Part shown: one piece after another, positions 15,764-60,353 of the stretch
Position numbering within the stretch: position 1 is the first letter of the stretch
Layout of the letters: every line of letters starts with the position of its first letter
Assembly: GCA_907165135.1 (NCBI GenBank)
Contig: OU015567.1
Span: forward strand, 5,022,001-5,086,000
Source: Oikopleura dioica
Lineage: Eukaryota; Animalia; Chordata
Reading direction: 5' to 3'
Length of the DNA stretch: 64,000 nt
The notes under the pieces: generated by a model
Told to the model about the DNA's origin: nothing
Seen by the model: the letters and a program-made list of their open reading frames with translations, nothing else
Databases searched by the model: none
Program-made: the position numbers and the translations under genes

Positions 15764-17724
15764 ATGAGAGACAACAGTAGAGTTATGGTAAAAAAGCGTT
15801 TAAAAATATTCCCTAAAAATATTTTTGTAGCTTCGAAGCGCTTTTGCGAGCATTGTTATCATTGGTCTCGTGTTTACCATTGGAATACCGATTCTTTATG
15901 GTAAATTTGCAGACAAGAGCGATACTTCAGCAAATCAACCATCATTAGATCAATCAACACAGCTCTCAACTTGGGTTCAAAATTCAATTATTTCATTGAC
16001 AATAAAAGGCCTAAATAATTCAACCCTTGAAAGCAAACTCACCAATAAATCCGTGTTCAAACAGTCCCTGTCAAAATGACGGATCTTGCACGATTTCCGG
16101 AAGCAGTTATACCTGTTCATGCATAGATGGTTTCTCCGGAGACGATTGCCAGATAACTCCCTGCACAAACGATCCGTGTCAGAATGGCGGAACCTGCTCG
16201 TTTTCAGGAAACAACCATCAATGCTCATGTAAAGATGGTTTCTCCGGAGATTCTTGCCAGATAACTCCTTGCTCTGAGGATCCATGTGATCATGGGTCCT
16301 GTGAGATTGATGGAGGAGAGTTTTTGTGCAACTGCGAAGGGGGTTTTTCTGGAAAACACTGCGAGATCGACCCCTGTTCTTCGAATATTTGCCAGAATGG
16401 TGGAACCTGCTTTTTCAATGAAACTGATGACTCATACTTTTGCTCCTGCAGAGAAAATTTTGCCGGGGTTCATTGCGAGATCGATCAGTGTTCTGACAAT
16501 CCATGCCAAAACGGTGGAAAATGCATTTTAATCGGAACTGATCTCGAATTTAAATGCAAATGCCCGCGCGGTTTCTCTGGAGAGACATGCGAAGACAGCG
16601 TTTGCGACTCTGATCCTTGCGAATACGGAGAATGTACGGTAAATGACCGGAACAAGACGAGTTCTCTCAGAGGACCAGCATTTTCTTGTGAATGCCCAAC
16701 TGATATGTTCGGAGGCCATTTGTGTCAAATAACACCATGCGAAATCAACGAAAGCGACCAAAGTAAACCTCCAGCATGCTTCAATGATGGAGTTTGCTCA
16801 ATGGACGGAGACGACTTCACATGCGAATGTCCCCAGTTCTACTCCGGCGAACGCTGTGAGATTTACCCTTGCATGGACTTTCCTTGTGAAAACGGTGGTG
16901 CTTGCGAAGTCACTGGGGAAGACAGCTTTACTTGTCACTGCCCTGATGACGTTACTGGGGTGTTTTGTGAAGGGCTACCTGGAATAACGAACGGTTGTTT
17001 TGAACTTGACTGCGATGGCGTCTGTGTTGAGATGACAGATGGACCAAAATGCTTTGGAAACTCACTGTTTGGATTTATTAACAATAATGATTATGAGGTT
17101 TGATGATTTTCGCAATCTTTGAATAAGTTTGAAAAAGTACTCGATGACTTGTGGAGCTTCTCATGCTCCAACAATGAACGCGACGCCGGAACAAGAAATT
17201 CATCATCTCGAAATCGTTCCCACCTTCAAAAAGAACGAATACTTTATCAACACTCATGGGTGTGGTAACACGGGAAATTGCAGAGCTAGCTTCCCAGAAG
17301 GAAAGAGTTTTCAGAGGAAAAACTGATATTCCGTTAACGTAAAAATAACTCTGAAAAGATGAACTACCCAGAGGTGGATGGGTATTGCATCAGGAAATGG
17401 GCAGATTCGGATTTTTGCAAACATGGCTTCTCACTGAGCATTGTGATGGGAACAAAAGAAAGGTTCAATGTAGATTTATGCTTATTCTTTTGAAGTTCAA
17501 AAGTTTTGAACGGTTTTTAAAGGAGAACGACTGCTTTTGGACAATCAAAGATAACAAAGGGCTCAATTTGGGTAAGCTCAAATTTATGCTTTTTTACAAT
17601 TTCTTTAGCTTGGAGAGCAAAAGAAGTTCTTATTCAGCCGATTGAATTGGTTCCATTTGTCGAAGATGATGAACGCTTCAGATGGACTCTTATCTCAAAT
17701 GCAACCGTGCAACCCATGAAATAA
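15764..17724 (+). CDS. Type II membrane EGF-repeat protein (paralog 2)
   Basis: MRDNSRVM|LRSAFASIVIIGLVFTIGIPILY anchor. EGF array and C-terminal exons are collinear with paralog 1, with mainly synonymous differences. Confidence 0.85.
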
Positions 17725-18481: not shown

Positions 18482-19280
18482 ATGAAATTTTTGCTTTGCG
18501 CTCTTTTAGCTGGTGTTTTTGCTTCGCCAAAATCGACACGAGCACAGTTTGATTTTCTTGAGGCAAGTTTATTTCAAAACCTGAGTCAGGATTCCTGGCC
18601 TGAGTCAGGATTCCTGACCTAAGTCAGGATTCCCGGCCTGAGTCAGGATTCCTAGCCTGAGTCAGATTTCCCGGCCTGAGTCAGGTTTCCCGGCCTGAGT
18701 CAGGATTCCTAACCTGAGTCAGGATTCCAAGCCTGAGTCAGGTTTCCCGACCTGAGTCAGGATTCCTAACCTGAGTCAGGATTCCAAGCCTGAGTCAGGT
18801 TTCCCGACCTGAGTCAGGATTCCTTACCATAGTCAGGATTCTCGAAAGTCTTCATGAAGGCTCTTCGATCAGATCTTTTGGGATCCTCACTCAGGTTTTT
18901 TTTTTTTTACTAAATGGCTGGAAAATGACTGTTTTTTTTTCAGGAAAATCCGATGTTGAAAGACGCGCTCCAGGGCGGCGGCGGCAACTGGCTGAAGATG
19001 CAGCAGCTGATCAACGAGCTGAACGACATCTACGGACTAAGCCCCAAAGCTGAGTATGTAACTCGAGCACCAGTCACAGCCAGAGGCTTGGGTCATTTTC
19101 CTCTCCCCAGTAGCTCTTTTTTCCGTTTTTAACCCAAAAGTAGACAGCGTAGCTTTTGAAAGAGCGGCGAAACAAGAGTGCCACTGCGCCGGTCGGTTAC
19201 ATACTCCGGACTCAGGAAAGCGCGCCTTCATGCCTCTCTACCTGCCCAACGAAGATCTCATGCCAGTCACCTACGCCTAG
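18482..19280 (+). CDS. Small secreted prohormone-like protein (3 exons, about 121 aa)
   Basis: TATAAAA at about 18427. Exons 18482-18562 (GC donor), 18944-19091 and 19144-19280 splice in frame. Signal peptide MKFLLCALLAGVFA and a GKR site. Confidence 0.7.
18580..18840. repeat. Tandem array of about 14 x 19-bp units CCTGAGTCAGGATTCCnnn
   Basis: Direct reading. It lies in intron 1 of the 18482 gene. Confidence 0.95.
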
Positions 19281-34041: not shown

Positions 34042-36048
34042 ATGAAGGTAATTTTTTACTTTTCGAAATTTTAAGAGACATTCATCCTATTTTCTAGCTT
34101 TTTGCACTTGCCGCAACCGCAACGGCTTACAGCTATTCAAGCTACTCTAGCTCCTCCAGTTCTTCCTCCAGCTCCTCTAGCTCCTCCAGCTCCTCTTCTA
34201 GCTCGTCTTCTGGCTTCTATACTCCAGACTACACTTGGGGCAACAAAGCCTGCTACCATCATATCACGAACGACACGACGATCACTACCCCCGGTTGGCC
34301 CTTCGACTATGGCAACAACCAAGTTTGTGAGTGGGAAATCGACGCTGGCGATGTCTACGGCATCATGATCACTAAACGATCCTTCGATCTCGAGTATCAG
34401 TACAATTGCAAGTATGACTCTCTTCTGATCGCGACTCCAGATGATTTCGACTCTGACGGAACACTCATCAACGGCGACATTTACTGCGGCACGAATGAAA
34501 ACCGAAAACGACGAGATGCGACGAGCGAAGAAGATGCAAGTCAAAAATCATCGCCTACCTATCGACTCGGCGTTGATCCTAATTTCAACATCTATCACGA
34601 CGGTTTTCCTTCCCACCCCGTTTTCATCCCTGGAGGACAGGCCCGCCTTGCTTTCCAAAGTGATTACTCGGTTTTTCGAGAAGGATTCGAGCTAGACATC
34701 CGCGTCATCGAAACCCGACCACCAATCGTCTGCCCTAACAGCGACTGGGTACCAAATTCCTTGCTTACCGCCTGTATCCCAAGAGCTTCGACTGTCGAGT
34801 AAGACATTAGCTTTTTATTAAAAGGTCTTTTATTAAAAAATTTAGTTGCGATTCCACCGTGGTCACCATCACCGCTCACGTGAACCATCTTTACGCTAAT
34901 CTCCCCCGCTATCGATGGGAAGACGCCCGACTCAACATCGGAGACTGCGAAGGAGAGAATGCACCATCCGCAGCTGGCTGGATGACGGAAACATTCGACT
35001 TAGGAGAATGCGGCGGGGTCATGACTCAAGCCGCGGAAATCGCCGTCAACTGGAACGCTACCGGCCCCGCTAGCCTCCTCGAGACGGAAGGAATCTTCAT
35101 TACTTCTCCTCTTGGCTTCAAAGCAGAATGCGTCTACGCAAGCGAAGTGAACCTGAACGCCGACGCGATTCATGTCGACCAATTTTTGAACGAAGTCGAG
35201 ACCGTTGTTGATACAAGCAACTTCGACGATTACTTCAGATTGATCATCTCTGGCGAACCGGGCGGAGATGAAACTCATGATATCAATATTGGTTAGTTGA
35301 ATATCTAAGCTTTAAGGACCCCCCCTTAGCTTTCAAAAGGAAATTTCTTAAAATACCATATTTAAAATATGATATTTTTGTTTCAAAAACTTGATTAGAG
35401 AAATTTTCGACCAAGAAAAATCATTATTTTTTCAAAATTAGGGCAAATTCGTCAATTTTCGGCGAAAAGTCCAATTTTCAAATGCGATTTTGGGGGTGAA
35501 GGAGTCGAGATAGACCCCCAAAAAATCCAGCTTTAGAGTTGTTTTTTGACCCATAGAATTCATTTCCGGGGTCGAAATTTTGAAATTCCTAAATTTTATT
35601 TTTCGAAAAAAGCTGACGGGGGATCATTATTTCTTATTTTTTAGTCAGTTATTTATTAATATATTCAGGTGAAATGCTTTACGGAAGAGTCGAGTCTGAC
35701 CTCGACCTCAGCCCATATCACTACGAATACCAGGTAAACATCAATCAAAGTAGCAAAATGTAAACAAAAACCAAGCTCGTCAAATGCACCGCCTGGAACA
35801 ACACAGAACACACTGGCGTCTCTCACGAGATCTATCCCTATCACTGCGCTCCCTCGACCGCTGTTGCTTTCGATCCAGTCGACACTGATGGCGGTTCCGG
35901 CGACGCTATCGACTTTGAATTCAAGAGTTTCACCTTCGACCAATATGATGACTCCCTCTACGTGACATGCGACATAAAAATCTGCGTCCAAGCCCCATCC
36001 GGGGAATTTTTGAATGATAACTGCTTCCGAGGACCTTGTGATGAATAA
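34042..36048 (+). CDS. Secreted CUB + ZP domain protein (paralog 1, oikosin-like)
   Basis: MK|LFALAATATA signal, poly-Ser, CUB (TPGWPFDYGNNQVCEWEI...FDLE...CKYDSL...FQSDYSVFREGF), ZP-N and ZP-C (FKSFTF...LYVTCDIKIC). No TM. Confidence 0.8.
35316..35625. mobile_element. Kolobok-like MITE, GGACCCCC family
   Basis: TTAA|ggacccccc...aaaagctgacggggga. Inverted homolog of 37112-37453. Confidence 0.7.
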
Positions 36049-36298: not shown

Positions 36299-39042
36299 AT
36301 GAAGGTAAGAGTTTCAGATTTTCAAAATTTTTTTCGAGCAAAATCTTTGTTAAGGATATAGCCTGTAAAATTCAACTTTTGTAGCGGCTAAACGCGAGGT
36401 CGGATCTTTTTCATTTCAAGTGCAATCCTACCTAAAAATGGACGGAGAATTCAATTTTGGTACTTTTTTAAAATTGTTTACTCGAATTTTTCTCTCTAGA
36501 GCGATTTGAAATCTTACGATCGCGATTCCTCGAAAATTTTTCACTAAATCGGTCGAGTTTTTTCGATAGATAGGTTCTTTAGACCTTTATCTACAAAATT
36601 GACGGTTCAGTTTTCTCTAAATCCGAAAGAAACCGATTTTACAGCCATTTCCATGAGGCTAACTCAGCGCGCAGAAGCTATGAAAAGCGCTGCGCTCGGT
36701 GCTCGCTCTCTCGCCTCCTCTTTTCCGGGAGAGCGTGAGAGTTTTTGCGAGCGCTTTGATTGGCTGCACGCGATAAAGCGCGCAGGGAAGAAAAGCAAGA
36801 GCAAGAAAGAGGAGAATACTAGAATGAAAATATGACCGAGTTTGAGAATTTTATTCCCTCAATTTTCTAGCTTTGCATCATGACAACAGAGAACACGGTT
36901 TTGTTTTAGCAAATTAGTGGAAAAATTTTGAGAAATCGCGATCGTAAGATTTCAAATCGCTCTAGAGAGAAAAATTCTAGTAAACAATTTTAAAAAAGTA
37001 CCAAAATTGAATTCTCCGTCCATTTTTAGGTAGGATTGCACTTGAAATGAAAAAGATCCGACCTCGCGTTTAGCCGCTACGAAAGTTGAATTTTACAGGC
37101 TATATCCTTAAGGACCCCCCTCAGTCAGCTTTTTTTGAAAAATCAAATTTCGGAATTTAATATTTCTGACCCCGGAAACGGATTCTACGGATCAAAAACG
37201 ATTCTGAGGCTTCATTTTTTGGGGGTCTATCTCGACTCCTTCACCCTTAAAATCGCTTTTGAAAATTGGGAATTTCGCCGAAAATTGACGAATTTGCCCT
37301 AATTTTTGCAAAAATGTTCATTTTTCTTGGTCAAATCTTCGTTTTATCAGGTTTTTGAAGCAAGTCTAATTTCAGGACGCATTAAGAACCAAAAATATGG
37401 TGTTTTTAAAATTTCAATTTTCGGAGGAAAAAGCTGACGGGGGGGGGGGTCCCTAATAAATAACACAAAAAATCTCATTTTTTTTCATTTCATTTTTTTT
37501 TGCTAGCTTTTTGCCATTCTCGCTGCCTCTGTTTCCGCGAATTGTGGAGGACAGATCACAACTGAGCAGCGAATCTACTCCCCGGGTTGGCCAGGAGACT
37601 ATGGAGCATTTGAAAGTTGCTTATGGGAAATCGACCTTGGGGACATCTACGGCTTCAACCTCATTCCTCACCATTTTGATGTCGAAAGCTTCGGAACCTG
37701 CGGCTGGGACTACTTGATGATCTCTGCCAACGATGACGGCGGCATCTATTGTGGCTACAACTCGGTTGCTCGAAAACGACGCCAAATCGAAGAAATCGCC
37801 GGAGTGCAGAAAAAGTCGCCAGCTCCGCGGACCGGCGCGGCAAGTCGATTCGGAGTTTCCACCGCTGGAATGCCCACGTACTTCGTCTCAGGAGGCCAAG
37901 CGCAGATCCTGTTTGAGACTGACGATCTTGACTTCTACAGCGGATTTGAAATCGAGATTCAAATCGTTGAGCCACCAACAACAACAGCCGCTTTCACAAC
38001 AACAACAACGTCGACAACAACTGTTGCACCGATCGACTGTCCAAACAGTGCCTGGGAGCCGAACTCAGCAAACACTGCCTGCTCACCCATCGATTTAACC
38101 GTTCAGTAAGTTGAAAACAAAAAAAAATTTCATCAAAATTTGAAAATCTGAAAATTCTTCAATCGAAATTAGGTGCGATTCAACTGAAATCACCATCTCC
38201 GCCCACGTCGATCACCTCTACGCAAATCTGCCTTCCACCCTCTACGGCGATGTCCGGCTAAACATAGGAGACTGCACTGGAAACAATGCTCCCGACGCGA
38301 ACGGATGGATGACTGAAACTTTCAGCTTGGGAACATGCGGCGGCGATGTCACTCAATCCAGCCAAATCAACGTTTCCTGGGACGGACGAGGTCCTCCCGA
38401 AGTCATCATGCAAGACGGTGTCTACGTCTCGTCGATTCTTGGCTTCAAAGCCGAGTGCATTTACTCGAGCGAGATCAGCCTCATGGCCGATCCCTTTTCA
38501 GTCGATCAGATTGAGTCAACAGCTGCACCAGTAACGAACACGAGCAACTTTGATGATCACTTCGAGTTGAACATCTTCAGCGATAACTTCTTCTCCGTTG
38601 AAGCTGCTGGCGTCAATATCGGTAAAGAACGACATCTTTTTTCCCGTTTCCTGAAATATTTTTTCTAGGCGAGACACTTTTTGGTTCCGTCACTTCCAAC
38701 CTCAATCTTGGTTCCCTATCTTACGATTACCAGGTACAGGAAAACTCAATAATCCCCCCTTATCGCCTTCAGATCACAAAATGCACCGCCTACGACAGCG
38801 CCAACATGGATGGACTTAGCTACGACATCCTCGCCGATCACTGCTCTCCCTCCACCGCCGTCGCTTTTGACGACGCTGATCTTGAGGGCGGCTCTGGTGA
38901 TGACTCAGCAGACTTCTCCTTCACCAGCTTTACGTTCAGCACTGACGATGAAACTCTCCACATTGAGTGCGACGTGAAAATCTGTGTCCGAGGCGCGAAC
39001 GGCGCTCTTTTGGACTCGTCCTGTCCTACTTCCTGTCTTTAA
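36299..39042 (+). CDS. Secreted CUB + ZP domain protein (paralog 2)
   Basis: MK|LFAILAASVSA, CUB (TPGWPGDYGAFESCLWEI...FETDDLDFYSGF), Thr linker, ZP (FSFTSFTF...LHIECDVKIC). Intron positions match paralog 1. Confidence 0.8.
36354..37107. mobile_element. Kolobok-like element with about 190-bp near-perfect TIRs
   Basis: TTAA|ggatatagcctgtaaaattcaac ... gttgaattttacaggctatatcc|TTAA. Confidence 0.9.
37112..37453. mobile_element. Kolobok-like MITE, GGACCCCC family
   Basis: TTAA|ggacccccctcagtcagctttt ... aaaagctgacggggggggggtcc|CTAA. Confidence 0.8.
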
Positions 39043-39516: not shown

Positions 39517-41681
39517 ATGAAACTTTTCGGAACAGCTCTTCTCGCGTCTGCGGTTGTCGCTGAGTACGATTACTACGAGGGAGAAAGAGGAAAGAAAAAG
39601 GGAGGCAAGGGCAAGAAGCCAGCGAAAAGAGATGCGTGCGGTTGTGATTTGAATCCGAGAAATGCACCTGATGCAGTTCCGACTTGTGTTGACGACAGTA
39701 GCAAAAGAAAGGTTATTGATTGGACTTGTGCTGCTACAGGTTTGTTCTTTGAAATCAACAACGACTTGAGCACTAATTCAAGGTCTCGTTGAGCGAACGG
39801 AAACAAAATGCAAGCGCCTGAGAAAAAGGACCTTGCTGAACCTTGTGGAGATCTCGGCTGCCGTTGCGCTTCTGAACTCGCTGCTTTTTCTGCGACTGTG
39901 TCTGGTTCTGCCATTCAATGCCGTCGGGGAGGCAAGAAGACTCTCTACAAGTTCTTCTGCGATGACGATGGTGATGGCGTTTTCGATCAAGGAGAAGCAA
40001 ACCAAATCAACCGGGTAAAATGCAAAAATGGCGAGCTCCGAAGAAACAAGTTCACGCTCACCTGCGGCGGCGGCGGCGGCGGTGGTGGCGCTGGAGGTGG
40101 TGCTATCACTCAAAATGCTGATGGTACTGGAGGAACTCCACCAGCGATCAAATCATATGTCACTGTCGATGAAAATAGTTCCCCAACAACGATTGGTGTC
40201 AACGCGAAAGCAATTGATGCTGATCTTTCTGCGTAAGTAATCCCTTTTTTTCATAGGAAATCAAAAATTTTAGTGATGGTGGTTTCATTGCCGCGGGTTT
40301 ATCGGTCGCCAACGAGTCCTCAACTGTCCGACAATTCTTCGTCACCAAGATCAAGACCTGCTCCGACAAGACCCAATACACCAATCCTCTGGGAACCATT
40401 CTTACTGGCGCGGGAGCAGACTGCGCTCAGAACTTTGACTGGAGCTTCTTAAAAACCGGAAACGCTTGCAACGCTGTAACCGTAAAAGAATCGCTTGACG
40501 GAACATACGTTCTCGCAGCTGGTCTTCATCAGTCCACCGGCGTCGCAGGTACTTACAATGGATACGTAGTCAAGCTCGATGCTTCGACTGGATCGATGAT
40601 CTGGGAATTCGATTACACGACGGATGTGGGAGCGCGCTCTGGATTCGAAACGCTTCATTTGACCTCGGATGGCGGATTTGTTGTCGGAGGATTCATCAAT
40701 CGAGGAAATTCCGAGTACCCAACCTTCAAGTCTGGTGGTCAAGTCGACGATGGAACTCCTGTTTTGATGAAATTCTCCAACACCATCGCCAGCAGCTCCT
40801 CAGTCAGCTCGCCCGAGCCCGACTGGAAATACGTCTGCGATGGATCGAACAAATCTTGCAATCTCAACGATGGTTCGATGAAAAACATGCGCGTTTACAC
40901 CGATAACGCGGGTGAGAATATCGTTGCCTTGCCAACTTCGAGGAGCATTCTCTGCGTCGTTAGTGCTGCAACTGGCGTGGAAATTGCCTATTCCGGGGAC
41001 GCAAAGACCAACGGTTTCGTCGGCGATGGCACTGCAAACGACATTGAAGTCGTCATCGACGGCGACGGCGAAGTAGAAGGCTACGTCGTCACCGGTCTAA
41101 GAGACAAGAAAATCAGCAGCGATGGTGGAATCACATGCTCTGGTGATGGATGCAAAGTCATCGATGGTTTCATCGCCAAGTACAAACCTGATCTGTCCGG
41201 GAAGATTTGGGACACGCTTCTTCCCACTTCTACCTGGCCCGGTGGAATCAATCAATTTGCCGGCACACAGGCTACTTTTGAAAGTTTGGTCTACACGGAG
41301 TGCTGGGGAATGGACAAAGTCAAGGATACGAGTGGCAATCATGTCGGCTTCGTAGCTGCTTGTGGAACTGGTATTGAACCTGGCTGTGGAATCCACCCTG
41401 GGGTAGGTTTTTCCGTTTTTTTAAGAAAAATAATGATTCAGGCGATCGGAACTGCTTGCACAACGGATCCCCGAACCGCCTGGCGAGGCGCAATCGTAAG
41501 ATTTGATCTGAACGGAAATCTTGTTTGGTACAGAATGGACTCCTTCAACGCCGGATCGGGAACCTCCGGCGAGTCCGCTTCGGAATACATCTTCCAAGAC
41601 GCCAATGGCAACATCGTCTCCCTGACCGATGAGGGATTCGGCGGCTTTGGATTTGAAACTCTCGAGCTAGAGAGCTTTTAG
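39517..41681 (+). CDS. Secreted protein: Lys/Cys-rich N-terminal modules, Gly linker, beta-propeller-like C-terminal domain
   Basis: Signal MKLFGTALLASAVVA, GERGKKK, poly-Gly, repeated blades DGGFVVGG, YVVKLDASTGSMIW, FIAKYKPDLSGKIW, IVRFDLNGNLVW. Confidence 0.75.
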
Positions 41682-44407: not shown

Positions 44408-47400
44408 TTAAGAAATTTTCGTTAAATGAGCTAAGATTTTCTTAATTTTAAGTTTGAGAAAATATGATCTGTAAAAATCGTATTTTTAGACAGTGAGCAA
44501 GAGTCACTCTTTTTTTCTCGTTTAAAAATTAATCTGCTGACCGCTAGAATTTCTCTGCGTTCGTGAAAAATCTAGCAGACACTTCGTGCGCAAACGCAAA
44601 AGACATACCATTTGTCCTTAGCGAGTTAATCTCCATCCGAAAGTCGTTAGCCTTAGAGCTTATCTCGAGTATTTCTCCAGTGCCCCGAAAAAGTACTCAT
44701 AAATAGATACAGTAATGAAGAAAAAGGAGTTCAGGATAATATTTACCCAATCGAAGCGGGGATTATCGGGAGAAAATTTATTTTACGCGCTAAGGAGGCG
44801 CTTTCGGAAATGATATCAAAATAATCAGAATTTTGCGAAATTTCTGACTTCTAAAATTCAGGAAATTCAGTGGAATTACTAGTTAAAAATCGAATTTTCA
44901 AAAAAAAATTTGAAATTTTTAGTTTTGATACCCAAAATTTGGACTAAACCAATTTTCGGAAGTGAGTTTTTGATAACCAATAAGATTGCAGTATTTGGCT
45001 TACCGGCCAATCAAAACCCTTTCCATAAAAATCTATTCCAAAAATTTGTTCTACCACAAAATTAGACCCAAAATTTGACCCTAAAAATGAACCTTATTTT
45101 CAAAAAATTTCGAGTCGAAAAGAGCTATTTCCTTGAGAATGCGCTCCATTCTCTTATCATCGAAGCACAGCGGGAGCGCGCGCTTATCATAGGAATGCGC
45201 AACAGCATATCTGAATTCATGTCACATGACATGAATTTGACAATTTTCCGAATTCGCAAAATTTGAAAAAAGACCATCCGCGGTTCATTTTTCTTTCTTG
45301 AGCGGCGCCTAGACGCGGCAGCTTTGAATAAATTTAAATCAAGATGGAGCAATTTAGAGCCAATCAGTGGTCGGACACGTAAAATGAGTTGTCATGAAAA
45401 AAAAAATTTTTTTGACATAAAAAAGCCATGTCTCAAAAATCTCAAAACTGAGATGAAAAATTCGACTAAAATTTTTTTTCGACTCAAATTTGACAATAAT
45501 TGTCAATTTTTTTTGAAAATTCGAGCCGACATCCCAAAATTTTTTTCGAAAAATTCTTTGGTCAACTTCCCTTATCAGTTCCAAATCAACTGATAAGCGC
45601 CGTGGCCGAAAATCAGATCCACTGAAAATGCGCGGTTTTGGCATTTTGACACGCACGTTTTGTTTCCCGTCAAAAATGCCACCGCGGGTGACCTCCTTAG
45701 CGGAACCACTGGAGCTTTAATTTTAGTCTTTTTTAAAATTATTTTTTAGATTTTCTTCAAGCGACGTTTTTCAACTCAATTTCGAAGACGCCGAAATTTG
45801 CGAAAAGATTGAAGAATCGCCGGATTATTTAAAAATAGAAAAAGTCGGATGCAAAATTTTTGTATTCGCAAATGAAGGAATGGCGTTTTAAAACTTTAAA
45901 GGGCCGAAAAACGGAAGGAGAATTACCGACCTCGCCCGCAAAAGGAAATTGCCACCCCCGAAATTCCGCGCTTGTTGTTTTGCTTCTGAGTTTTCAGCAG
46001 GCTTTGCTCTAGAATTAGATATAATCAACAGGTTTCTGAGTCTCCCCCTCATTTTATTGAAATTTGTTAAATATTCAAAAAAATGAATAATTAAAAAAAT
46101 AATTAAAAAAAGTAATTATTTTAAAAATAATAATTATTTTATTATTAAAGTGATTTTTTATTAGAATTAAATAAATTAAAAAAAATAAAATAAATAATGA
46201 ATAAATAATAAATAATTTTATAAAATTTTAAATCGCCAAAAAGTCAATTTCAAATTTCCCGCCCAAATTTCTTCGATTGAAATTTCCATTCTTCCGCTTT
46301 CCAATTCTGACTTCTCGAGTTATTCCGAATCTCGACTGAGAAGAGCGACATTTGCTGCGCAAAGAAGCAATGATGATTCTGTCGCTTCTGGTCCGGATGA
46401 AAAGACTTTGGACTGGGCGGTTTACATAGGAATGGTTCTGGAAAAAGAAATTTCTGGGAAGACAGGGAAAGAAGAAAGAAAGATACTCTTCCGGAAGGGT
46501 GTTTTTGTAAAATGAGACAGCTGCCAATCAGACATTGATTGATAAGCGCCCCTAGAATGATTGACGATTTTGAAGATCTTGAAAAACTTTTTTTCTCGAA
46601 AAAATATGAGTTTTTCGAAAAAATTTTTCGAGAAAAGTTCCGAATTTTTAAATTCGAGAAATCCTTTGCGGCTTCGAAAATAATAAGAAAAAAGCCGCGC
46701 AAATGCGGCTCCTCAAATTATCACTCGAAGCTGCGAGCGGCTTCTTGAATTTTTGCGGAGAATTTTTTCCAGAAATTTTTTTTTCCAGAACCGAAAAAAA
46801 GTCGTCTTCGTCTTGGTAATTTTGCCCGTCGGAGCAATTTTCTACTGTGCGTGTCAGGAACGGATCATCCCATTAGAACAGCCCTTCTTCCCTCTGCCCT
46901 TTCTTCTTGAGCTAGCTCCTTATCGCATTTCGTAACGGAGCGTAAAAGGAGAGAAAAAACGGTAGCGCAGTCGGGAGAAGCTCGGCTGATCCAATTACTT
47001 AGTCCCAAATGCACGCGGCAACGCATGGCATCACCGCTTCCCAGCGCGCTTCGGAGACGACTATTGGAGCTACTGGAAAGGAAAATGGTTGAAATTTCAT
47101 TTTCAAAAAATTTTAAAATTTTGAAAAAAAAAATTTTTTTTCTGAAAAAAAATTGAAAACCAAAAATAGACGATTTCGCAACAACCTATCACCACCGTCG
47201 GCTAACTGTAATTGACTGTAATTGAAGGAAAAACACTGACAAAGCAAAAACAACGTAGGAAGCGGTCGGCTTCGTTCTTCGACTTTCGAGCTTTTTGCAA
47301 AAGAATAAATAGCAGGCTCGAAGCGTTCAGAGTCGCTACCAAGTCAAAATCTTAAAGCCAACCGCACAAAAGAGCGCTGCCTAGTTCGTTACTCTTATGA

Positions 47401-47489
47401 CATTTAAATAGTATGCTTGCTTCTTTCTAACAAATAAAGTCCCGAACTATCTCATTTACTGGTTTATTACAGCTTTGATCGTCGAAAAT

Positions 47490-47621
47490 TGAATATTATG
47501 AGTCATTATTAATGAATCATTATATAATTTATGAGTCATAATATAATTTATGAGTCATAATTAAATTAATGAGTCAGAAATTATGGCTCTTCATTTATGA
47601 TTCATAATATGATTTATGACT
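47490..47621. repeat. AT-rich array of ATGAGTCAT-like motifs (continues at 51882-51950)
   Basis: At least 7 TGA(G/A/T/C)TCA-like motifs spaced 12-20 bp, interrupted by the LTR element. Confidence 0.85.
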
Positions 47622-47936
47622 TAGAGATTGTCGGAAATGCTGAATACGGACTTATGCCGGCGCATCGGCGCACACGAGCAAATATCGTAAACGACCCTCT
47701 CCGCGAATCCTCGGCACAACTCGACACTCTGACTTTTGACACTCTGACTTTTGACACTCTGAAACTGAGACACTCAAAAAGAGACTCCTTTTGATACACT
47801 CCACCCTTTGATACACTCAACCTAAATACAATCAACTGTAAACTAAATCGTGTTCGACTATGATTAGGCTTAAACAACCAGAGTAGCATTAGGCAACGCC
47901 GCCCGGCCATATATCCAGTAAATCAGACTATTTCTA
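47622..47936 (+). repeat. 5' LTR (315 bp)
   Basis: Identical to the 3' LTR by eye except A5 vs A4 in cactcaaaa(a)gagac. Ends TAGA...TCTA. Internal 15-bp repeat gacactctgactttt. Confidence 0.95.
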
Positions 47937-47938
47937 TC

Positions 47939-47949
47939 TGGTGACTTCG
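47939..47949 (+). other. Primer-binding site, probably tRNA-Trp
   Basis: TGGTGACTTCG, 2 nt after the 5' LTR. It resembles the tRNA-Trp PBS TGGTGACCCCG if two G:U pairs are allowed. Confidence 0.65.
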
Positions 47950-47960
47950 TAAAAACAATA

Positions 47961-49739
47961 ATGGTACCCCCAAATTTAGAAATAGAATATAAAATATATC
48001 GCCTTAAAATTTACGGTATTCCAAATGCTCTTATTTCTCAAATGAAAGCCCGGTATAAAATTGATTCGAAAGGAAATTCTCGACGTGGACTCTTTGAATA
48101 CTTTTATAATATCCATAATGAAAATCAAGAAATCCCACCTCACCTGTTAGCGTGTCCCTTTTATTTGAAATACAAAAATAAGGGTAAACCTTATGAAAAT
48201 CTGTTCTTAGCTCTTGCTTTTCCCAACAATAATCAAGTCAAAAATAATCTTGATGATCAAACTCTGTTAACATATGATGAGCTTTTTGAAATGGCTCAGG
48301 AACAAATGAGTGAAATACCAGTTTTCGACCCTAAAAGCATACAATGTAATGAGGAAAATGTCGAAGATTTGTTAGTTTTTCTTTACAAACGGTTCGTGAT
48401 TGATGGAAAATCAATTTCAAATTATCAATTTACGAAATCCGACGAGATTTTTGATCCATCTCAGAAAATGATAAAAATAAATTATGCAGGAGACTGGAAT
48501 TCCACTGTCGCTAATATTAAATTGAATGACAAAATTCACTCTTCGGAATTTCAGAGAGTTTGGGATCTCGAGAATGAAAAATTAGCTGAAAGCTCAAGGG
48601 TCGAAGAAGAGCAGCAAGCCGATATTTCGAATAATATAAATATCCTTAGTGAGACGGAGGAAAACTCTGATTCTGAGACATCAGAAATCTTAGGTATAAA
48701 ACATGGTTCTGGATCCCGTAGAGGTAAAACTGTGCCCGAAAAAGTGGTGTTAGTTAATAATTTGGAGAAATCAGACGATATGAAAATGGGCCAAATCAGA
48801 AAATTTACGGAAAAAGATGACACTGATGGGCTGCTTTTGTGGGCTGAAAATCAAATTTTTAGTTTAAAATTGCAGTTCTCAAATAGAACCTTACCTGATG
48901 AAATGCTTATCGGTTATTTAATTAGCAAAATTGAAGCAAAATTTGTTGCAGATGAAATTTCCACGAACTTGCAAAAATTAAATGAAAGAGGGATAGTATT
49001 AACAATAAAACGGTTCATGGACGTTCTAGAAAAAATAACGAGCAAGAACGATGAGCAAATAATGAGGGAAGTGGAGCTTATAGAGTTCGATCCGGATAAA
49101 GAAACGGTCGATGGATTCTATCGACGACTTCTGCGGAAAATCCGCGCGTCAAAAATTTTTAAAGGGGACGGGGGGACCAAATTTTGTGAGCTTCATTTCC
49201 GGAAGAAGGTGTTGAAAGATGACGGTTTGTTTCAAATTTTATCCATGAATTATGTGTGCACGGAGCTAATTGAGTTCACCGAAGGTTTTTTGAGCCAAAG
49301 AAGGTTAGCAAACTTGAACAACATCGAGACCGGGAAATTTGATGGTGAGAGCAATGAATTTTATGACACCGACCAAGATCAATGGCATTCCGGAGGTTAT
49401 AATAATAACAACTTTGATAGCTTTGAAGGTCAAGTCAATCATCTTACTCCGGAAGGTCACCGGAATCAACATCGGATGGCCCCAGATAATAACGATAATT
49501 ACGGGCAAGATCAAAGAGCGGACTTTAATTATCAGCCGCTCCCAGAGTCAGAAAGAATTCCGAATACTCTGCATAATTATTACAACACTCTTGAGCAAGA
49601 ACCCCCTGGTTATACTATAAAACGATGCTTCTATTGCGGTAGCCGATTCCATCTTATAAGGTTTTGTCCAGATCTTCCGGATCGTGAAGAAGAAAATGAA
49701 AATGACGAAAATAAATTACATTTAAACGAAAAATTTTGA
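47961..49739 (+). CDS. gag: Gag-like protein (592 aa)
   Basis: Intronless ORF inside the LTRs, capsid-like helical middle (ETVDGFYRRL), C-terminal CCHC knuckle CFYCGSRFHLIRFC. Confidence 0.85.
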   Translation: MVPPNLEIEYKIYRLKIYGIPNALISQMKARYKIDSKGNSRRGLFEYFYNIHNENQEIPPHLLACPFYLKYKNKGKPYENLFLALAFPNNNQVKNNLDDQTLLTYDELFEMAQEQMSEIPVFDPKSIQCNEENVEDLLVFLYKRFVIDGKSISNYQFTKSDEIFDPSQKMIKINYAGDWNSTVANIKLNDKIHSSEFQRVWDLENEKLAESSRVEEEQQADISNNINILSETEENSDSETSEILGIKHGSGSRRGKTVPEKVVLVNNLEKSDDMKMGQIRKFTEKDDTDGLLLWAENQIFSLKLQFSNRTLPDEMLIGYLISKIEAKFVADEISTNLQKLNERGIVLTIKRFMDVLEKITSKNDEQIMREVELIEFDPDKETVDGFYRRLLRKIRASKIFKGDGGTKFCELHFRKKVLKDDGLFQILSMNYVCTELIEFTEGFLSQRRLANLNNIETGKFDGESNEFYDTDQDQWHSGGYNNNNFDSFEGQVNHLTPEGHRNQHRMAPDNNDNYGQDQRADFNYQPLPESERIPNTLHNYYNTLEQEPPGYTIKRCFYCGSRFHLIRFCPDLPDREEENENDENKLHLNEKF

Positions 49740-51555
49740 AAAAAAAAGGAAGCACTGGTGGATTGAATTTTTATATTTTAATTTTGATAGAAATGAATTG
49801 AATAAAAACAGAGTTAAAAAACAATCATAATGGAATTGATTGTTATTAAAAAAAAGGTGTAATAATAATATTTTAATGAAAATGAGAAAATATTGGTTGT
49901 AATTTTCAATGACAAATAAGGGAATTTTAGAAATTTATATTCTTTTTGAAAATATAAAATACGGGGCCCAAAGTAGTGATTATTTTGAAAAAGAATTTTT
50001 ATATGGACAAAATTTCCGTAAAACGTTGTATATAGCTGACGAGCTGAATAACTGATTTTAACCCCGACCAAAATTTATCTTTTTCAAAGCCGGCTTAGGA
50101 TTATGTAGAAAAGGAAGAAAAAGGGAAATAAATTATGTCGACAAGGTTGAAAATGAGAAAAACAAAGTTATATTCGCGCAACAAAATAAGAGTTGGCGTT
50201 TACTATCAGAAGCCAAGGAATGGCTGGGAAAAAGTGTAAAGATGCTATCAACATGAAATTTGATGAAGAAGTTTGAGCCAAAGTGGGCCATAAAATAGAA
50301 AAGAAAAATTTTTTGTCAACATGAGAGTTGACCTAAGTCGTTTTAGCCAAGGAGGGCTTCTTATTTTTAGTTACTTACGAAAACATGAAAGCTGATTTTA
50401 TTTGTTAAAGCCAAGAAGGTTAAGAAAAGAGGATAAAGATTAATAATTTTTTAAAAAGAATTCGATGACATAAATTTTAAAATCCGCCAGTCCTTGCAAT
50501 TTTTGCTAAAAATTGAATTTAAATAGATATAAAAGATAAATTTTTGGACATAAAATTTCCAAACTTCATACGACAAATAAAACTTGATCGTCGTAGAACC
50601 ATTGATCTATAATAAATGATGCTAACGTTCAACAAATAAAGAGCGTCAAAACTTTAGTCAGATTTTGATACTTAGCGCTTAGTATTAATTATTCGATTAT
50701 TAATAAATTTTTGACCCTGTTATATTTATGTCGGTATAACAGTGTTGTAGAAAAAAAAATCGTACATATTTAGTCATAATTTGGTAAATCGACATCACTT
50801 GCGACTGTTTATCAGTAATTAATTCCTGACATTGAATCACTATCCAATCGCTTTAAATCTGTATATTTTCTATTCCTGTTATTTACAACCAACCCAAACT
50901 AATTAAAAGTTAAAAAAAAAAATGAATTGAATCTTATCATGAATTTTTATTAGTTTGCGATAAAAACTGCTTCAATCAATTGTCGAATTTAAATTTTGAA
51001 AGAAAAAAAAAATGAAAAATAACTTAAAAAAAATAAATAAAAGATAAGGAGATCTTTCCTTCACAAAAAAAATCCATTCTAACTGTAAAATTGTTATTAT
51101 CAATAGTTTTAACATATATACGTTTAATTTTCGTATCTTTAGTTATTATATTACTCTGCTTATTTTTCCCAAATAATACTTAATTTCGTGAAAAAAAAAC
51201 CAAAAAAAAAATAATAATAATTCTACTGTTTCTTTTAATTTTTCTGCAATTCAACGGACCAATTTTTTCTGTTTTTATCAAATTCATATTTTTCTGTTTA
51301 TCTCGAGAAGCAATCATTAACTGTTAAGAAAAAATCATAAATAAGCTTTCTGTTTTTTTATACTGTTTATTATTTAGCTGAACCTATCTTTGCTCAACAA
51401 AAAAATATCTTCTTGAGGGTGGGAATCAAATAATCAAAAGAAGTCAAAACAATATGACCAATCATTACATCAAAAGCCAACAAGCGAAAATTTTATCAAG
51501 TCATCAAAACAAAAACAAAAACGATTACGGCGACATTCACTCAACAAAAATCAAT

Positions 51556-51567
51556 GAGGGGGAAGGA
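51556..51567 (+). other. Polypurine tract
   Basis: GAGGGGGAAGGA immediately 5' of the 3' LTR. Confidence 0.9.
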
Positions 51568-51881
51568 TAGAGATTGTCGGAAATGCTGAATACGGACTTA
51601 TGCCGGCGCATCGGCGCACACGAGCAAATATCGTAAACGACCCTCTCCGCGAATCCTCGGCACAACTCGACACTCTGACTTTTGACACTCTGACTTTTGA
51701 CACTCTGAAACTGAGACACTCAAAAGAGACTCCTTTTGATACACTCCACCCTTTGATACACTCAACCTAAATACAATCAACTGTAAACTAAATCGTGTTC
51801 GACTATGATTAGGCTTAAACAACCAGAGTAGCATTAGGCAACGCCGCCCGGCCATATATCCAGTAAATCAGACTATTTCTA
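51568..51881 (+). repeat. 3' LTR (314 bp)
   Basis: Direct repeat of 47622-47936. Confidence 0.95.
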
Positions 51882-52404
51882 GACTCATTACTAATTAGTC
51901 ATTATTTATGAGTCAAAATATAATTTATTACTCATAATTTTGGCTCATCCTTTTATCGTGAAAACTCATTTTGAAAATCAGCTTATTTGTGAAAGAAAAG
52001 AAACAGGCGAAAGTTTTTGCGAAATATTTTGCGCTAGAATCGCGATTTTCTCGGAGAACAAGTCGAAGGCCTCTTCCATCAGCTCTTCTTCATTTTCTGC
52101 CATCAGAATATTTTTTCCAAAAATTTCGGTCTCTTGAATCGAAAATTTGAAGAATTCGGTCGCGATTGCGTACGCTTAGTAAATATTAAAAGTCGAGATT
52201 TCGCTAAACAACGCGAATTACCGTCATGGAAGCACGCCAAAAATCACAAAAGCCGACCACTTTGTTCGAGTCGTAATTGATGATTAAATGACTTTAGGAA
52301 GCTCATAGGAAGCAATTTTCTTTACAGTCATTTTTTCTAGCGCAAATATTGACACGAAAGAAATTTGATTTTTTTCTCGTTGATTTGAGATTTATTTAAA
52401 TAAT

Positions 52405-55400
52405 TTAAAAGTCAGTGACACTTTCTTTGTCAAAAGCTTCGTTTTTCTCGCCGACTTTTTCATCAAGCTCATTTGGTGGCTCCTCGTCGAACTCCGACGG
52501 ATCGACGTATTCGTAGTAAAAGATGGCGAGGAGGATGAAAACGGTGGTAGAACTGGCCATAATGGCGGAAAGAATGAAATATTCGCCACTTTGGGTCGGG
52601 TGCAATTTGAGTTCGACGAGGAAAATGTCGATGATGTTTCCGAGACAGGTGGTTAGCAGCCAAAAGCTCTAGAAAATTGAGTCGAAAGGAAAGAGGGAAA
52701 GAAAGGGGTCCAACCTGAACGACGGATTTCATCGACTTTGGCGCCTGAGTATACGCAAATTCTAGACCAGTTACAGAGTTCATTACTTCTCCCGCAGTAA
52801 TGACAATGTACTGCGGCAACAATAAGAAGATATTGACGTCATTTGCATTCGATTCAAGACCAACTCGGACTTCGCATTTCCCATTGCCGGTTTGGACAGC
52901 CATGAAGCTCCAAATAGAGCCAGTTCCATAAGGAAATTCGGAATTGAATGGGCTAGTTTCATGATAGGGCCAGTTGTTTGCGTCCCAGAAATCAGAGACG
53001 CATGAGAATTCTTTCTGCAGCTCCAATTCTTCATCCGTGATGTCTGAAAAGAATAAGGGCCCCTTATTTTCCTTGTTTCTTACCATCATCAATGGGGTCC
53101 TTCATAAAATAAGCCTTTATCTGAAAATTTCCTCGATCAAATTCGGTGCTCTCATCCTCCTTGCTAAATGGACTGATGGTCTTGTCGACCACCATTCGTT
53201 TCTCCGACCCATCAGATTTATCAACCAGATGATATCGTAGATAATACCCGCTTGGATTCAGCAAAACCGCTCTAACTCGCATCGACCCGGATTTTTCCTT
53301 TGGGCTGACGTACTAAAATTTTCGGCTGAAATCAAGGAAGACTCAAGGAAAGAATTTTACCCAAAGATATTCGTATTTCGACTCGTTTTTGTAGACCATA
53401 AAGCTATTGATTGTTTCATGCTCGATTTCATCAAGAGAAATATCGAAGTCGAATTTGCCCGGGGCGTTTATTTTGAGAACCTCATTTTTTGGCAAATCGT
53501 CTCTTTTCAATCGGTTTTGAAATTTAATTTTCGAAAATTCAGCAAAAATATTTTTCAAATTCGATTCCTGATTTTTGCATGAGTTTCAGTCCGGAACTCT
53601 TCAATATTCGGCTTTACTGAATACCCGCCAACTGGGTACTCGTCTCCGAGAAAGTCCCAATAGCTCGAGGAAACGGTGAAGTCAGCATCAGCTAGGCCAT
53701 TCATAACGCGAAGAGAGTTCTGAGTCTTGTAATCAGGAATAGGAGTGAGTCCGTCATCGATCGCCAGTTGGACGAATCCCGCGACTAGGAAAGCCAAGGC
53801 GGTTGTGAGCTAAAAACTGGATGAAAACTGTGAATCATTTGACCCGAAAGTCCGTAAATCCATCTGGAAACTCACCTGGCCAGCACTCATTCTTCGCAAA
53901 GACGTCATTTTGAAGCCACACCATTCTATCGCTGGATAGACGCAGTATTGAAAAAGTGGCAAGAAGGCGAGAATCATGATTGGATTCATAATCTGCATCT
54001 GATCGGGTCGAATCTTTGCGTTTCCAACCCATCCATTCGTCTGAGTCGCTGAGAGGGTCCAGCGAGATCCTTGCATGGAAAAGAGCGCCCAGAAGAAGGG
54101 CAGGGGAATGTACATGACGATGATTGGCAGGACGGATTTGTACTCCTTCATTTGCTTTTCCGTGTATTGCGATTTATCACCACATGGGCAGACCGCCGCT
54201 TTTTCAGGGCTTTTCAAAATTTCCAAAGAAAATCCAAAATTATTCCAAAAATTCCAAACAAATTCAACTAAATTCCAAAAAATCCCGAAAAAATCGAGAA
54301 AATTCCAATAAATTCCAAAAAATTTCAAAAAATTTCAAAAAATTCCAAAAAATTCCGAAAAAAATTCCGAAAAAATCCCAAAAAATCCCAAAAAAATCGA
54401 AAAAATTCCAATTAATTCCATAAAATTCCAAAAAATTCCAAAAGATTCCGAAAAAAAATCGAAAAAAAATTCCAAAAATTTCAAAAAAAAAAGTTTTTCA
54501 CATGAAAATGAAAAGCCCTTGCATATAAACTGCCCAAAAACATTTCCCTTACTCGGCTTGATAATGTACTTCTTGCTTCCAGCGACGAAGGCAATAATAG
54601 CCACGAACATCAAGCAAGCTGGGACGACAAAAGCGATGGCATAGCAATCGGCTCGGTCAAAGCACTGAAGCTCTCGGAGAATCGGAGATACGAAGGTCGA
54701 CATGAGCGAGCCAGCATTGATCGAGGCGTAAAAAAGGGAGAAGAAGCCGGAAAGTTGTTCTTTTCCCTTTTTCGTGTCCTCGAAAAAATTGTCAAAAAAT
54801 GCCGTTTTTCCGGTCTTACCTTGAATTGATCACCACCAAGGGCCGCCACGCAAGGCTTGATGCCTCCAGTTCCCATTGCGACTGTGATGAGAGCACAGAT
54901 CGCTAGAATCGTGTTGGTATTATTTGGTGAATTATCATCGCCGAAAGGAACCGCGCTTACAGTCATCATCACCATTCCAGCGAGATAGACGATGGAGAGG
55001 TTCAGGATCGTCCAGAATTTACCGAGGCAAGAGTCTGCAATGATCCCACCAATGAGGGGGAAGAAGTAGCACATGGCGATGTAGGAGTGGTAGATGATTG
55101 TCGACTCATCCTTTCTTTTGGCTTTTTTTACCCAAAAATGATTTTTTGACCAAAAAAATGAACATTATTTGACAAAAAAAATTTTTTTCGACCAAAAAAA
55201 AATAACATTTTTTTACCAAAAAAAAATTTTCTTCGACCGAAAAATGATTTTTGACAGAAAAAAACGAATTTTTTCGACCGAAAAAAATTATTTTTTAATT
55301 TAAAAATCGTATTAATCGGCAAATCAAAATTAAGCCTGGTCCTTCGAGAAACCAAGAAAATAAGTCAAAAAGATGATCAAAATACTTCGCATTCCATAAT

Positions 55401-60266: not shown

Positions 60267-60353
60267 TCCGTCGAACCGGATTCGAACCAGTGACCTAGAG
60301 ATAACTGCTCAACCCTCTACAGTCTCCCGCTCTGCCAACTGAGCTATCGACGG
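60267..60353 (-). tRNA. tRNA-Tyr(GTA) with a 14-nt intron
   Basis: Reverse complement CCGTCGA TAGCTCAGTTGGCAGAGC G GGAGA CTGTAG[AGGGTTGAGCAGTT]A TCTCT AGGTC ACTGG TTCGAAT CCGGT TCGACGG A. Full cloverleaf with the intron at the canonical 37/38 position. Confidence 0.95.

What the first reader, a model, noticed from the sequence alone, without database searches (positions are those of the whole stretch)
47622..51881. Very young gag-only LTR retroelement, a possible helper-dependent capsid system
Seen: LTRs differ by one homopolymer base; the TSD, PBS and PPT are intact; a 592-codon Gag ORF is uninterrupted; the remaining 1.8 kb has no RT, RNase H or integrase ORF on either strand. So the element apparently moved recently without pol while keeping gag open. 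Known: gag-only LTR elements (TR-GAG) are described in plants, and Oikopleura Tor elements normally encode pol, some also env. Inference: a non-autonomous family that supplies its own capsid and borrows Pol, possibly the gag half of a bipartite gag/pol pair.
Basis: partly seen in the sequence, partly recalled or inferred. Interest (0 to 1): 0.85.

Follow-up and report, generated by a model that had tools for sequence, protein, structure and literature searches.

The report
Capsid-only jumping gene in Oikopleura
This is a freshly inserted copy of a small family of retrovirus-like jumping genes in the sea-squirt relative Oikopleura that keeps an intact capsid gene but has no copying enzymes, so it likely borrows them from a complete relative, a design already known from plants and mammals.

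Summary
Window 47622-51881 has 315/314-bp LTRs with no substitution and one A-run indel, a 4-bp GACT duplication, PBS, PPT and a 592-codon ORF. Its predicted fold best matches retroelement capsids, and it has one CCHC knuckle. The 1.8 kb after gag shows no pol trace. It is a family, not one deletion: in DNA runs from two studies, variants 6-11% diverged cross the gag stop into the same AT-rich region or match within it; one contig leaves before the knuckle for unknown sequence. Selection on this gag is only suggested (7 silent, 7 replacement; p 0.009-0.12). A second, apparently pol-less family with the same end signals (L002-L005, Gag about 27% identical) has dN/dS 0.07-0.29. The nearest relative with pol (L001) keeps its own gag, so a split gag/pol pair is unsupported. 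The real helper was not found, and expression is untested. LTR ends are TA...TA, not TG...CA. Gag-only elements are known (TR-GAG, wheat Quinta, MaLR), and this scan noted other pol-less families in other genomes, none alike in sequence. Verdict: new member of a known kind.

The parts
47618..47621 (+). Left copy of the 4-bp target-site duplication (GACT), inside a short TGA(G/C)TCA-rich satellite
   Evidence: Sequence
47622..47936 (+). 5' LTR, 315 bp, ends TAGAGA...TTTCTA; holds 15-bp and 17-bp tandem units
47937..47950 (+). TC spacer (47937-47938) and primer-binding site; 8-nt core TGGTGACT at 47939-47946
   Evidence: same core in L002, L003, L005 and in published Oikopleura env-carrying elements
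47961..49739 (+). gag ORF, 592 aa: unassigned N-terminal ~200 aa, acidic linker, capsid domain, N/Q-rich stretch, one zinc knuckle, acidic tail
48792..49316 (+). Predicted capsid (CA) domain, about aa 278-452
   Evidence: pLDDT 50 or more only here; domain model mean pLDDT 73.9; the top 31 VIA rows are all retroelement, retroviral or Gag-derived capsids, best Z 9.2, rmsd 2.7 over 82 residues
49626..49667 (+). Single CCHC zinc knuckle (C556, C559, H564, C569)
   Evidence: Sequence; aligns with the knuckle region of P0001 and P0004, which have two
49740..51555 (+). AT-rich non-coding internal region (GC 0.19-0.39 per 200 bp), no pol or env trace; shared with diverged copies
51556..51567 (+). Polypurine tract GAGGGGGAAGGA
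51568..51881 (+). 3' LTR, 314 bp
51882..51885 (+). Right copy of the target-site duplication (GACT)

Best explanation
[quoted passage not shown] Shown: intact cis signals, near-identical LTRs, a target-site duplication, an open gag, no pol trace, and diverged pol-less sister copies. Inferred, from how Ty3/gypsy elements are known to work: the 5' LTR drives one RNA; Gag made from it packages that RNA; a few Gag-Pol molecules from a co-expressed helper join the same particle; a tRNA ending in AGUCACCA primes at the PBS and the PPT primes the second strand; the helper's integrase trims two bases from ends that read GA-TAGA...TCTA-TC and inserts the DNA with a 4-bp duplication. Pol was likely lost well before this insertion, since variants 6-11% apart share the pol-less layout. 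Keeping gag would favour packaging of the element's own RNA and add capsid protein to mixed particles.
For: Cis signals and youth; 0 substitutions in 314 bp gives an upper 95% bound of 0.95% LTR divergence. Gag identity: 4 homologs; the best, P0001 (33%), has two zf-CCHC and is followed by PR-RT-RH-IN in L001, whose RT/RH best matches Ty3 (E 1e-31); capsid fold. Family: in run X1 a variant with 15 differences in 248 nt crosses the gag stop; in run X5 (another study) a variant with 20 differences and 6 gap letters in 265 nt crosses it with 94 nt before and 165 after; no X5 contig of 45 runs on unlike for 20 or more letters. X5 also has a post-gag variant with 43 differences in 392 nt and two LTR-end junctions with other flanks. 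Selection: 7 silent (one is stop to stop) and 7 replacement changes against the X1 variant, pN/pS 0.24. Parallel case: L002-L005 carry gag, then 1.35 kb without pol, the same GGA|TA and (3 of 4) TA-TC|TGGTGACT junctions, and dN/dS 0.07-0.29 over 6 pairs; 32 silent and 28 replacement sites in three of them, p 4e-6 after allowing for transitions. The PBS core is shared with published env-carrying Oikopleura elements.
Against: No helper was found: the pol-bearing L001 is only 32-33% identical in Gag, has no LTR similarity (best 8 bp) and is itself broken by a frame change in RT. One of 18 X1 contigs (13 differences in 114 nt) leaves the gag at 49613 for 31 unlike letters, so a sibling with a different 3' part, pol included, is not excluded. 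The selection test on this family rests on 14 changes at the poorly conserved 3' end and weakens to p 0.047-0.12 with a transition bias or without the stop codon; 11 further listed gag differences gave 4 silent and 7 replacement, p 0.15. One diverged gag variant has 13-14 gap letters in the capsid region, so not all copies keep the frame. L002-L005 are contigs broken at A-runs, so sequence between their two ends is unseen.
Confidence: 0.72

Rival explanations
1. Split genome: this is the gag half of an obligate pair whose partner has pol but no working gag, so each needs the other.
For: Gag is kept open in two distant, apparently pol-less lineages. Diverged LTR variants appear as loose ends in all four DNA runs and could belong to a partner. 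In X5 one contig skips most of gag (joints 48116 to 49216 and 49247 to 49370, short sides).
Against: The only pol-bearing relative found has a complete 616-aa gag overlapping pol (L001). Published Tor elements have gag and pol together (PMC4402516). No gag-less pol element was seen.
Confidence: 0.07
2. The Gag is kept because it interferes with complete Tor elements (a dominant-negative restriction factor, as Fv1 does for MLV), and the element spreads as a by-product.
For: The Gag sits on a long branch (1.5 changes per column) and has one knuckle where the pol-bearing relative has two. In X1 the flank contig runs into the LTR at the same depth as gag (129.6 and 125.9), a hint of a homozygous insertion, whereas PMC4402516 reported none homozygous. 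Fv1 precedent: PMC1331978 passage.
Against: All cis signals for mobility are intact, the LTRs are near-identical, and other insertion junctions exist. Contig depth is not a copy number, and inbreeding would explain homozygosity.
Confidence: 0.08
3. The frame stays open for the RNA's sake (escape from decay, or cis signals inside gag); the protein does little and particles are built from helper Gag.
For: Replacement divergence from the X1 variant (pN 0.04) is similar to non-coding divergence just after the stop (8 substitutions in 181 nt). A frame-disrupted variant exists.
Against: Silent changes exceed replacement changes per site in both families, and capsid-domain residues stay aligned across 29-41% identical relatives.
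Confidence: 0.09
4. A single copy of an ordinary gag-pol element that lost pol after inserting.
For: One X1 contig leaves gag before the knuckle for unknown sequence; no whole genome could be searched.
Against: A deletion younger than near-identical LTRs would not leave 1.8 kb with random stop counts and no pol likeness. Variants 6-11% diverged share that region in two studies.
Confidence: 0.04

Closest known systems
TR-GAG elements of plants (PMC4350172; abstract and passages read)
   Same: LTRs, PBS and PPT with a single ORF for Gag; no AP, RT, RH or IN; several copies; apparently active.
   Different: Defined in plants, with a 4-kb limit (this is 4260 bp); here an animal host, TA...TA ends and a Gag with no Pfam Gag hit.
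RLG_Quinta / RLG_Cereba pair of wheat (PMC11302176; passages read)
   Same: A gag-only derivative proposed to supply Gag to particles while borrowing RT and IN; partners share PBS and LTR termini.
   Different: There the helper is identified and both are abundant and centromeric; here the family is low-copy and the helper is unknown.
ERVL-MaLR of mammals (PMC11359688 and PMC1331978; passages read)
   Same: Animal non-autonomous LTR elements without pol or env, with homology to their relative's gag; one copy has a predicted 464-aa ORF.
   Different: Retroviral (ERV-L) lineage, very abundant, mostly old; this element is Ty3/gypsy-type, rare and very young.
Tor elements of Oikopleura dioica (PMC4402516; parts 1-4 of 6 read)
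   Same: Same host group; near-identical LTRs; 4-bp duplication within the reported 4-5 bp; PBS core shared with env-carrying O. dioica elements listed in PMC13524379's supplement.
   Different: Tor elements were found and classified through pol or env, which this element lacks; no gag-only form appears in the parts read.

Membership tests
TR-GAG (structural class) | Two LTRs with PBS and PPT | tested here: met
TR-GAG (structural class) | Only one ORF, similar to Gag capsid proteins | tested here: met
   no Pfam Gag family hit on the window protein itself
TR-GAG (structural class) | No aspartic protease, RT, RNase H or integrase similarity | tested here: met
TR-GAG (structural class) | At least two copies | tested here: inconclusive
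   Diverged variants and other LTR junctions in contigs of two studies, but no second full-length copy was seen whole
TR-GAG (structural class) | Length at most 4 kb, plant host | tested here: not met
   4260 bp; Oikopleura host. It works like a TR-GAG but is not filed as one.
Ty3/gypsy LTR retrotransposons | Pol order PR-RT-RH-IN and Ty3-like RT | tested here: inconclusive
   The element has no pol; met only in its nearest pol-bearing Gag relative L001
Tor family of Oikopleura | Pol (RT to IN) groups with Tor1-Tor4 | not testable with these tools
   No pol in the element, and no named Tor Pol was retrieved (one search returned nothing)
Tor family of Oikopleura | Oikopleura host; 4-5 bp duplication; near-identical LTRs | tested here: met
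   PMC4402516
Autonomous/non-autonomous pair (Cereba/Quinta criteria) | A complete element in the same genome with identical PBS and LTR termini | not testable with these tools
   No genome held; only the 8-nt PBS core is shared with published O. dioica elements
Bipartite gag/pol pair | A partner with pol but no working gag | tested here: inconclusive
   None among 5 loci found; the one with pol has gag; genome not searchable

The most novel reading that the evidence does not exclude
Oikopleura harbours long-lived, repeatedly evolved capsid-donor retrotransposons with TA...TA ends that depend on, and supply Gag to, partners that have given up their own gag, forming a split-genome retroelement that could also ride on Tor Env to move between cells.
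Probability: 0.07. Interest if true: 0.8.

Novelty: new member of a known kind. Interest (0 to 1): 0.42.

Why it matters
Tor surveys found elements through pol or env, so gag-only families would have been missed. Two such lineages with a conserved gag in one of the smallest animal genomes suggest that keeping the capsid gene while dropping the enzymes is a recurring strategy outside plants and mammals. Because the family is young and low-copy in an animal with a six-day life cycle, whether a gag-only element is a parasite, a capsid donor or a brake on its helper can be tested. The TA...TA ends would also escape LTR finders that require TG...CA.

Tried and rejected
No whole genome is held, so copies could not be counted in an assembly. 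Pfam does not recognise the window Gag; the word-indexed search found no homolog of it nor of the later part of L001 pol. Viral contigs gave nothing for P0001, the Gag alignment or L001 pol. A short stretch near 50230-50280 looked by eye like an integrase C-terminal relic (motif recalled, from no call); 0 of 6 frames hit Pfam and L001 lacks that end of pol, so it stays unsupported. No captured host sequence: the post-gag region has no match in the rest of the window, no Rfam hit at E<=0.1, and only low-complexity matches to L003. Expression: no RNA holder listed; on 49380-49960 run X10 gave 2 partial reads under 90% identity and X7 none, with no control that these runs come from the same population, so this is no test. 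Foldseek found nothing at E<=0.001 for either model, though capsids led both lists. The N-terminal 200 aa had no usable Atlas hit and pLDDT under 50. The Gag tree has three groups and no outgroup, so it cannot show whether pol was lost once or twice (L005 left out because of its frame change). Contig depths were not used as copy numbers. The primer tRNA was not settled: the PBS matches the published O. albicans 12-mer at 10 of 12 and shares the 8-nt core with the O. dioica ones. The supplement of PMC4402516, which may list LTR ends, was not searchable. A pattern search showed that the unlike sequence entered by one X1 contig is not in the window.
Full report
Observation. The element is as described. 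The 5' LTR (47622-47936, 315 bp) and 3' LTR (51568-51881, 314 bp) have no substitution and one gap in an A-run; that gap may be a sequencing slip. Zero substitutions in 314 bp bound LTR divergence at 0.95%; I give no date because no rate was at hand. GACT flanks both sides, inside a TGA(G/C)TCA-rich satellite that resumes after the element. TC plus TGGTGACTTCG follows the 5' LTR, and a 12-nt purine tract precedes the 3' LTR. The ORF 47961-49739 has 592 codons, far beyond chance (about 4e-21). The element has no other copy in the window. A neighbouring host ORF is 76% identical to an Oikopleura dioica protein, so the host belongs to the O. dioica group.

Is the ORF a Gag? Pfam does not say so and the word-indexed search found nothing. 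The exhaustive search found 4 homologs, 22-33% identical. The best, P0001, has two zf-CCHC knuckles; ours has one. Atlas neighbours by features were mostly zf-CCHC and Retrotrans_gag clusters at 0.91-0.94, with a recognition value just under the tool's threshold. The full-length model is poor (mean pLDDT 42.5) outside aa 278-452. That domain folded alone reached 73.9. Foldseek gave nothing at E<=0.001 but led with PNMA2, dArc and Ty3 capsids. Against 48,161 chains the top 31 VIA rows were all retroelement, retroviral or Gag-derived capsids, best Z 9.2, rmsd 2.7 over 82 residues; single Z values of this size are weak for helical proteins, and the agreement of the list is the evidence.

Is pol really gone? 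The 1828 bases after the stop have 35-52 stops per frame against about 47-56 expected, longest open stretch 86 codons. Read with X at stops, 0 of 6 frames hit Pfam. The best match to the pol of the nearest pol-bearing relative is E 0.24. Rfam finds nothing.

Family or accident? No assembly is held, so I laid contigs of public runs. Six runs hold part of the stretch, four of them at half the words or more. On 46300-51567, 87, 105, 291 and 334 contigs of X1, X2, X3 (one study) and X5 (another) were laid; only 24 of 193 loose ends, 32 of 854 pieces and 40 of 523 differences were shown. X1, X2 and X3 have contigs running from the left flank into the LTR. All four runs hold a second gag variant with 35-36 differences and 13-14 gap letters over 316-342 nt. 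X1 has a post-gag variant with 16 differences in 257 nt, X5 one with 43 in 392 nt, and X5 has two LTR-end junctions with other flanks. A diverged LTR type shows as loose ends in all four. On the gag end (49380-49960; 18 X1 and 45 X5 contigs, all 3 loose ends shown), an X1 variant with 15 differences in 248 nt crosses the stop by 33 nt, and a contig of similar depth continues to 49930. An X5 variant with 20 differences and 6 gap letters crosses it by 165 nt, and X5 has at least three versions past the stop. No X5 contig runs on unlike for 20 letters. Against my reading, one X1 contig (13 differences in 114 nt) leaves at 49613, before the knuckle, for 31 unlike letters that are not in the window; what follows is unknown. 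Siblings under 82% identity would be invisible.

Selection. The complete list of coding differences to the X1 variant gives 7 silent (one stop to stop) and 7 replacement, pN/pS 0.24, p 0.009. With a transition bias of 2-5, or without the stop codon, p is 0.024-0.12. Eleven other listed gag differences gave 4 and 7, p 0.15, and three from the other variant were all replacements. So selection on this gag is suggested, not shown.

Relatives. The Gag alignment found 5 loci in metagenome contigs. L001 has a 616-aa gag overlapped by a pol frame with protease, then RT, RNase H and integrase, broken by one frame change in RT; its RT/RH best matches Ty3. L002-L005 (about 97-99% alike) have a Gag about 27% identical to ours, followed in the longer contigs by about 1.35 kb without pol (L003 read with X). 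They look like circularly permuted 4.2-4.3 kb elements with one collapsed LTR of 243 bp, broken at A-runs; the unseen joint is a caveat. Their gag has dN/dS 0.07-0.29 over 6 pairs; in L002-L004, 32 silent and 28 replacement sites give p 4e-6 with transitions allowed for. All five loci share the purine tract ending GGA then TA; L002, L003 and L005 share TA-TC then TGGTGACT, L004 has one extra base, and L001 reads AA-TC with one change in the PBS. LTR bodies are unrelated. The Gag tree has three groups and no outgroup, so one or two losses of pol cannot be told apart. The supplement of PMC13524379 lists two O. dioica and one O. albicans env-carrying elements with the same 8-nt PBS core; L002, L003 and L005 match the O. 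dioica ones over 11 nt, which suggests but does not show their host.

Mechanism. Shown: mobility signals, recent insertion, open gag, no pol, pol-less sister variants. Inferred from established Ty3/gypsy biology (my own knowledge): Gag made from the element's RNA packages it, helper Gag-Pol joins the particle and supplies all four enzymes, and integrase trims the two outer bases of ends that read GA-TAGA...TCTA-TC. Cis preference and trans-complementation of defective elements are described for mouse IAP and ETn (PMC1331978 passages). The helper must accept TA rather than CA ends. L001 is too distant to be it.

Known systems. TR-GAG (PMC4350172; abstract and passages), wheat Quinta/Cereba (PMC11302176; passages) and MaLR (PMC11359688; passages) already show gag-retaining, pol-less elements, the last in animals. 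PMC4402516 (parts 1-4 of 6) found Tor elements through pol or env and reports 4-5 bp duplications and hemizygous insertions; its supplement, which may list LTR ends, could not be searched. Passages of PMC8008620 and PMC4122922 add no gag-only Tor; PMC2774666 only cites the Tor paper; PMC10886601 passages concern non-coding TRIMs. PMC12440569 (abstract and section 14) treats TG...CA as the rule and CG...CG as an exception. I saw no report of a gag-only Oikopleura element or of TA...TA Tor ends in the listings of searches, but Volff 2004 and Naville 2019 were seen only as references, and TATA ends are, from recall, among non-canonical plant LTR motifs. Earlier scan notes describe other pol-less LTR families in other genomes; none matches by sequence or place.

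Verdict. A real, very young member of a low-copy gag-only LTR family in Oikopleura, probably Tor-related, with an apparently pol-less sister lineage and unusual ends. It is a new member of a known kind. The bipartite reading is not excluded but has no direct support. Interest 0.42.

Noticed in passing
window 47620-47627 and 47931-47938; 51566-51573 and 51876-51881; L003 948-955 and 1187-1202: LTR ends are TA...TA with matching outer dinucleotides (GA and TC) in this family and in the distant L002-L005 family, implying an integrase that accepts TA instead of CA.
   Followed up: partly
L002-L005 (L003 950-1192 LTR, 1205-2965 gag): A second, apparently pol-less gag family of about 4.3 kb plus one LTR, with gag dN/dS 0.07-0.29.
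   Followed up: partly
L003 350-748 and 3898-4299: Two extra ~130-aa ORFs in that family: one with CxxC...CxxC-like spacing before the PPT (weak zinc-ribbon hit, E 0.06; frame-shifted in L004), one with dN/dS 0.5-1.2. Neither has a counterpart in the window element.
   Followed up: partly
P0002: A Gag 76% identical to the L002-L004 Gag lies on a 7831-nt contig, long enough for a complete gag-pol(-env) sibling; it could not be fetched.
   Followed up: no
window 47700-47925: A more diverged LTR type with a similar 3' end shows as loose ends in all four DNA runs; a candidate for the helper's LTR.
   Followed up: no
window 48116-49370 (run X5): One contig skips most of gag in two steps (short sides, letters between unknown): a possible gag-deleted derivative or a distant relative.
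   Followed up: no
window 47498-47621, 51882-51930 and 18579-18841: The insertion site is a short TGA(G/C)TCA-rich satellite; another array with this AP-1-like motif (label recalled) and a 19-bp period lies at 18.6-18.8 kb.
   Followed up: no
window 52469-55164 (-): A POT/PTR2 peptide transporter gene ends about 0.6 kb from the element's 3' LTR (Pfam PF00854).
   Followed up: no
window 13495-14856 and 16015-17103; 34098-34802 and 37507-38668; 40257-41681: Tandem EGF-repeat exons, CUB/ZP-like ORFs (labels by eye) and an ORF related to an oikosin house protein.
   Followed up: no
window 60267-60353 (-): A tRNA-Leu gene call; not checked as the element's primer.
   Followed up: no
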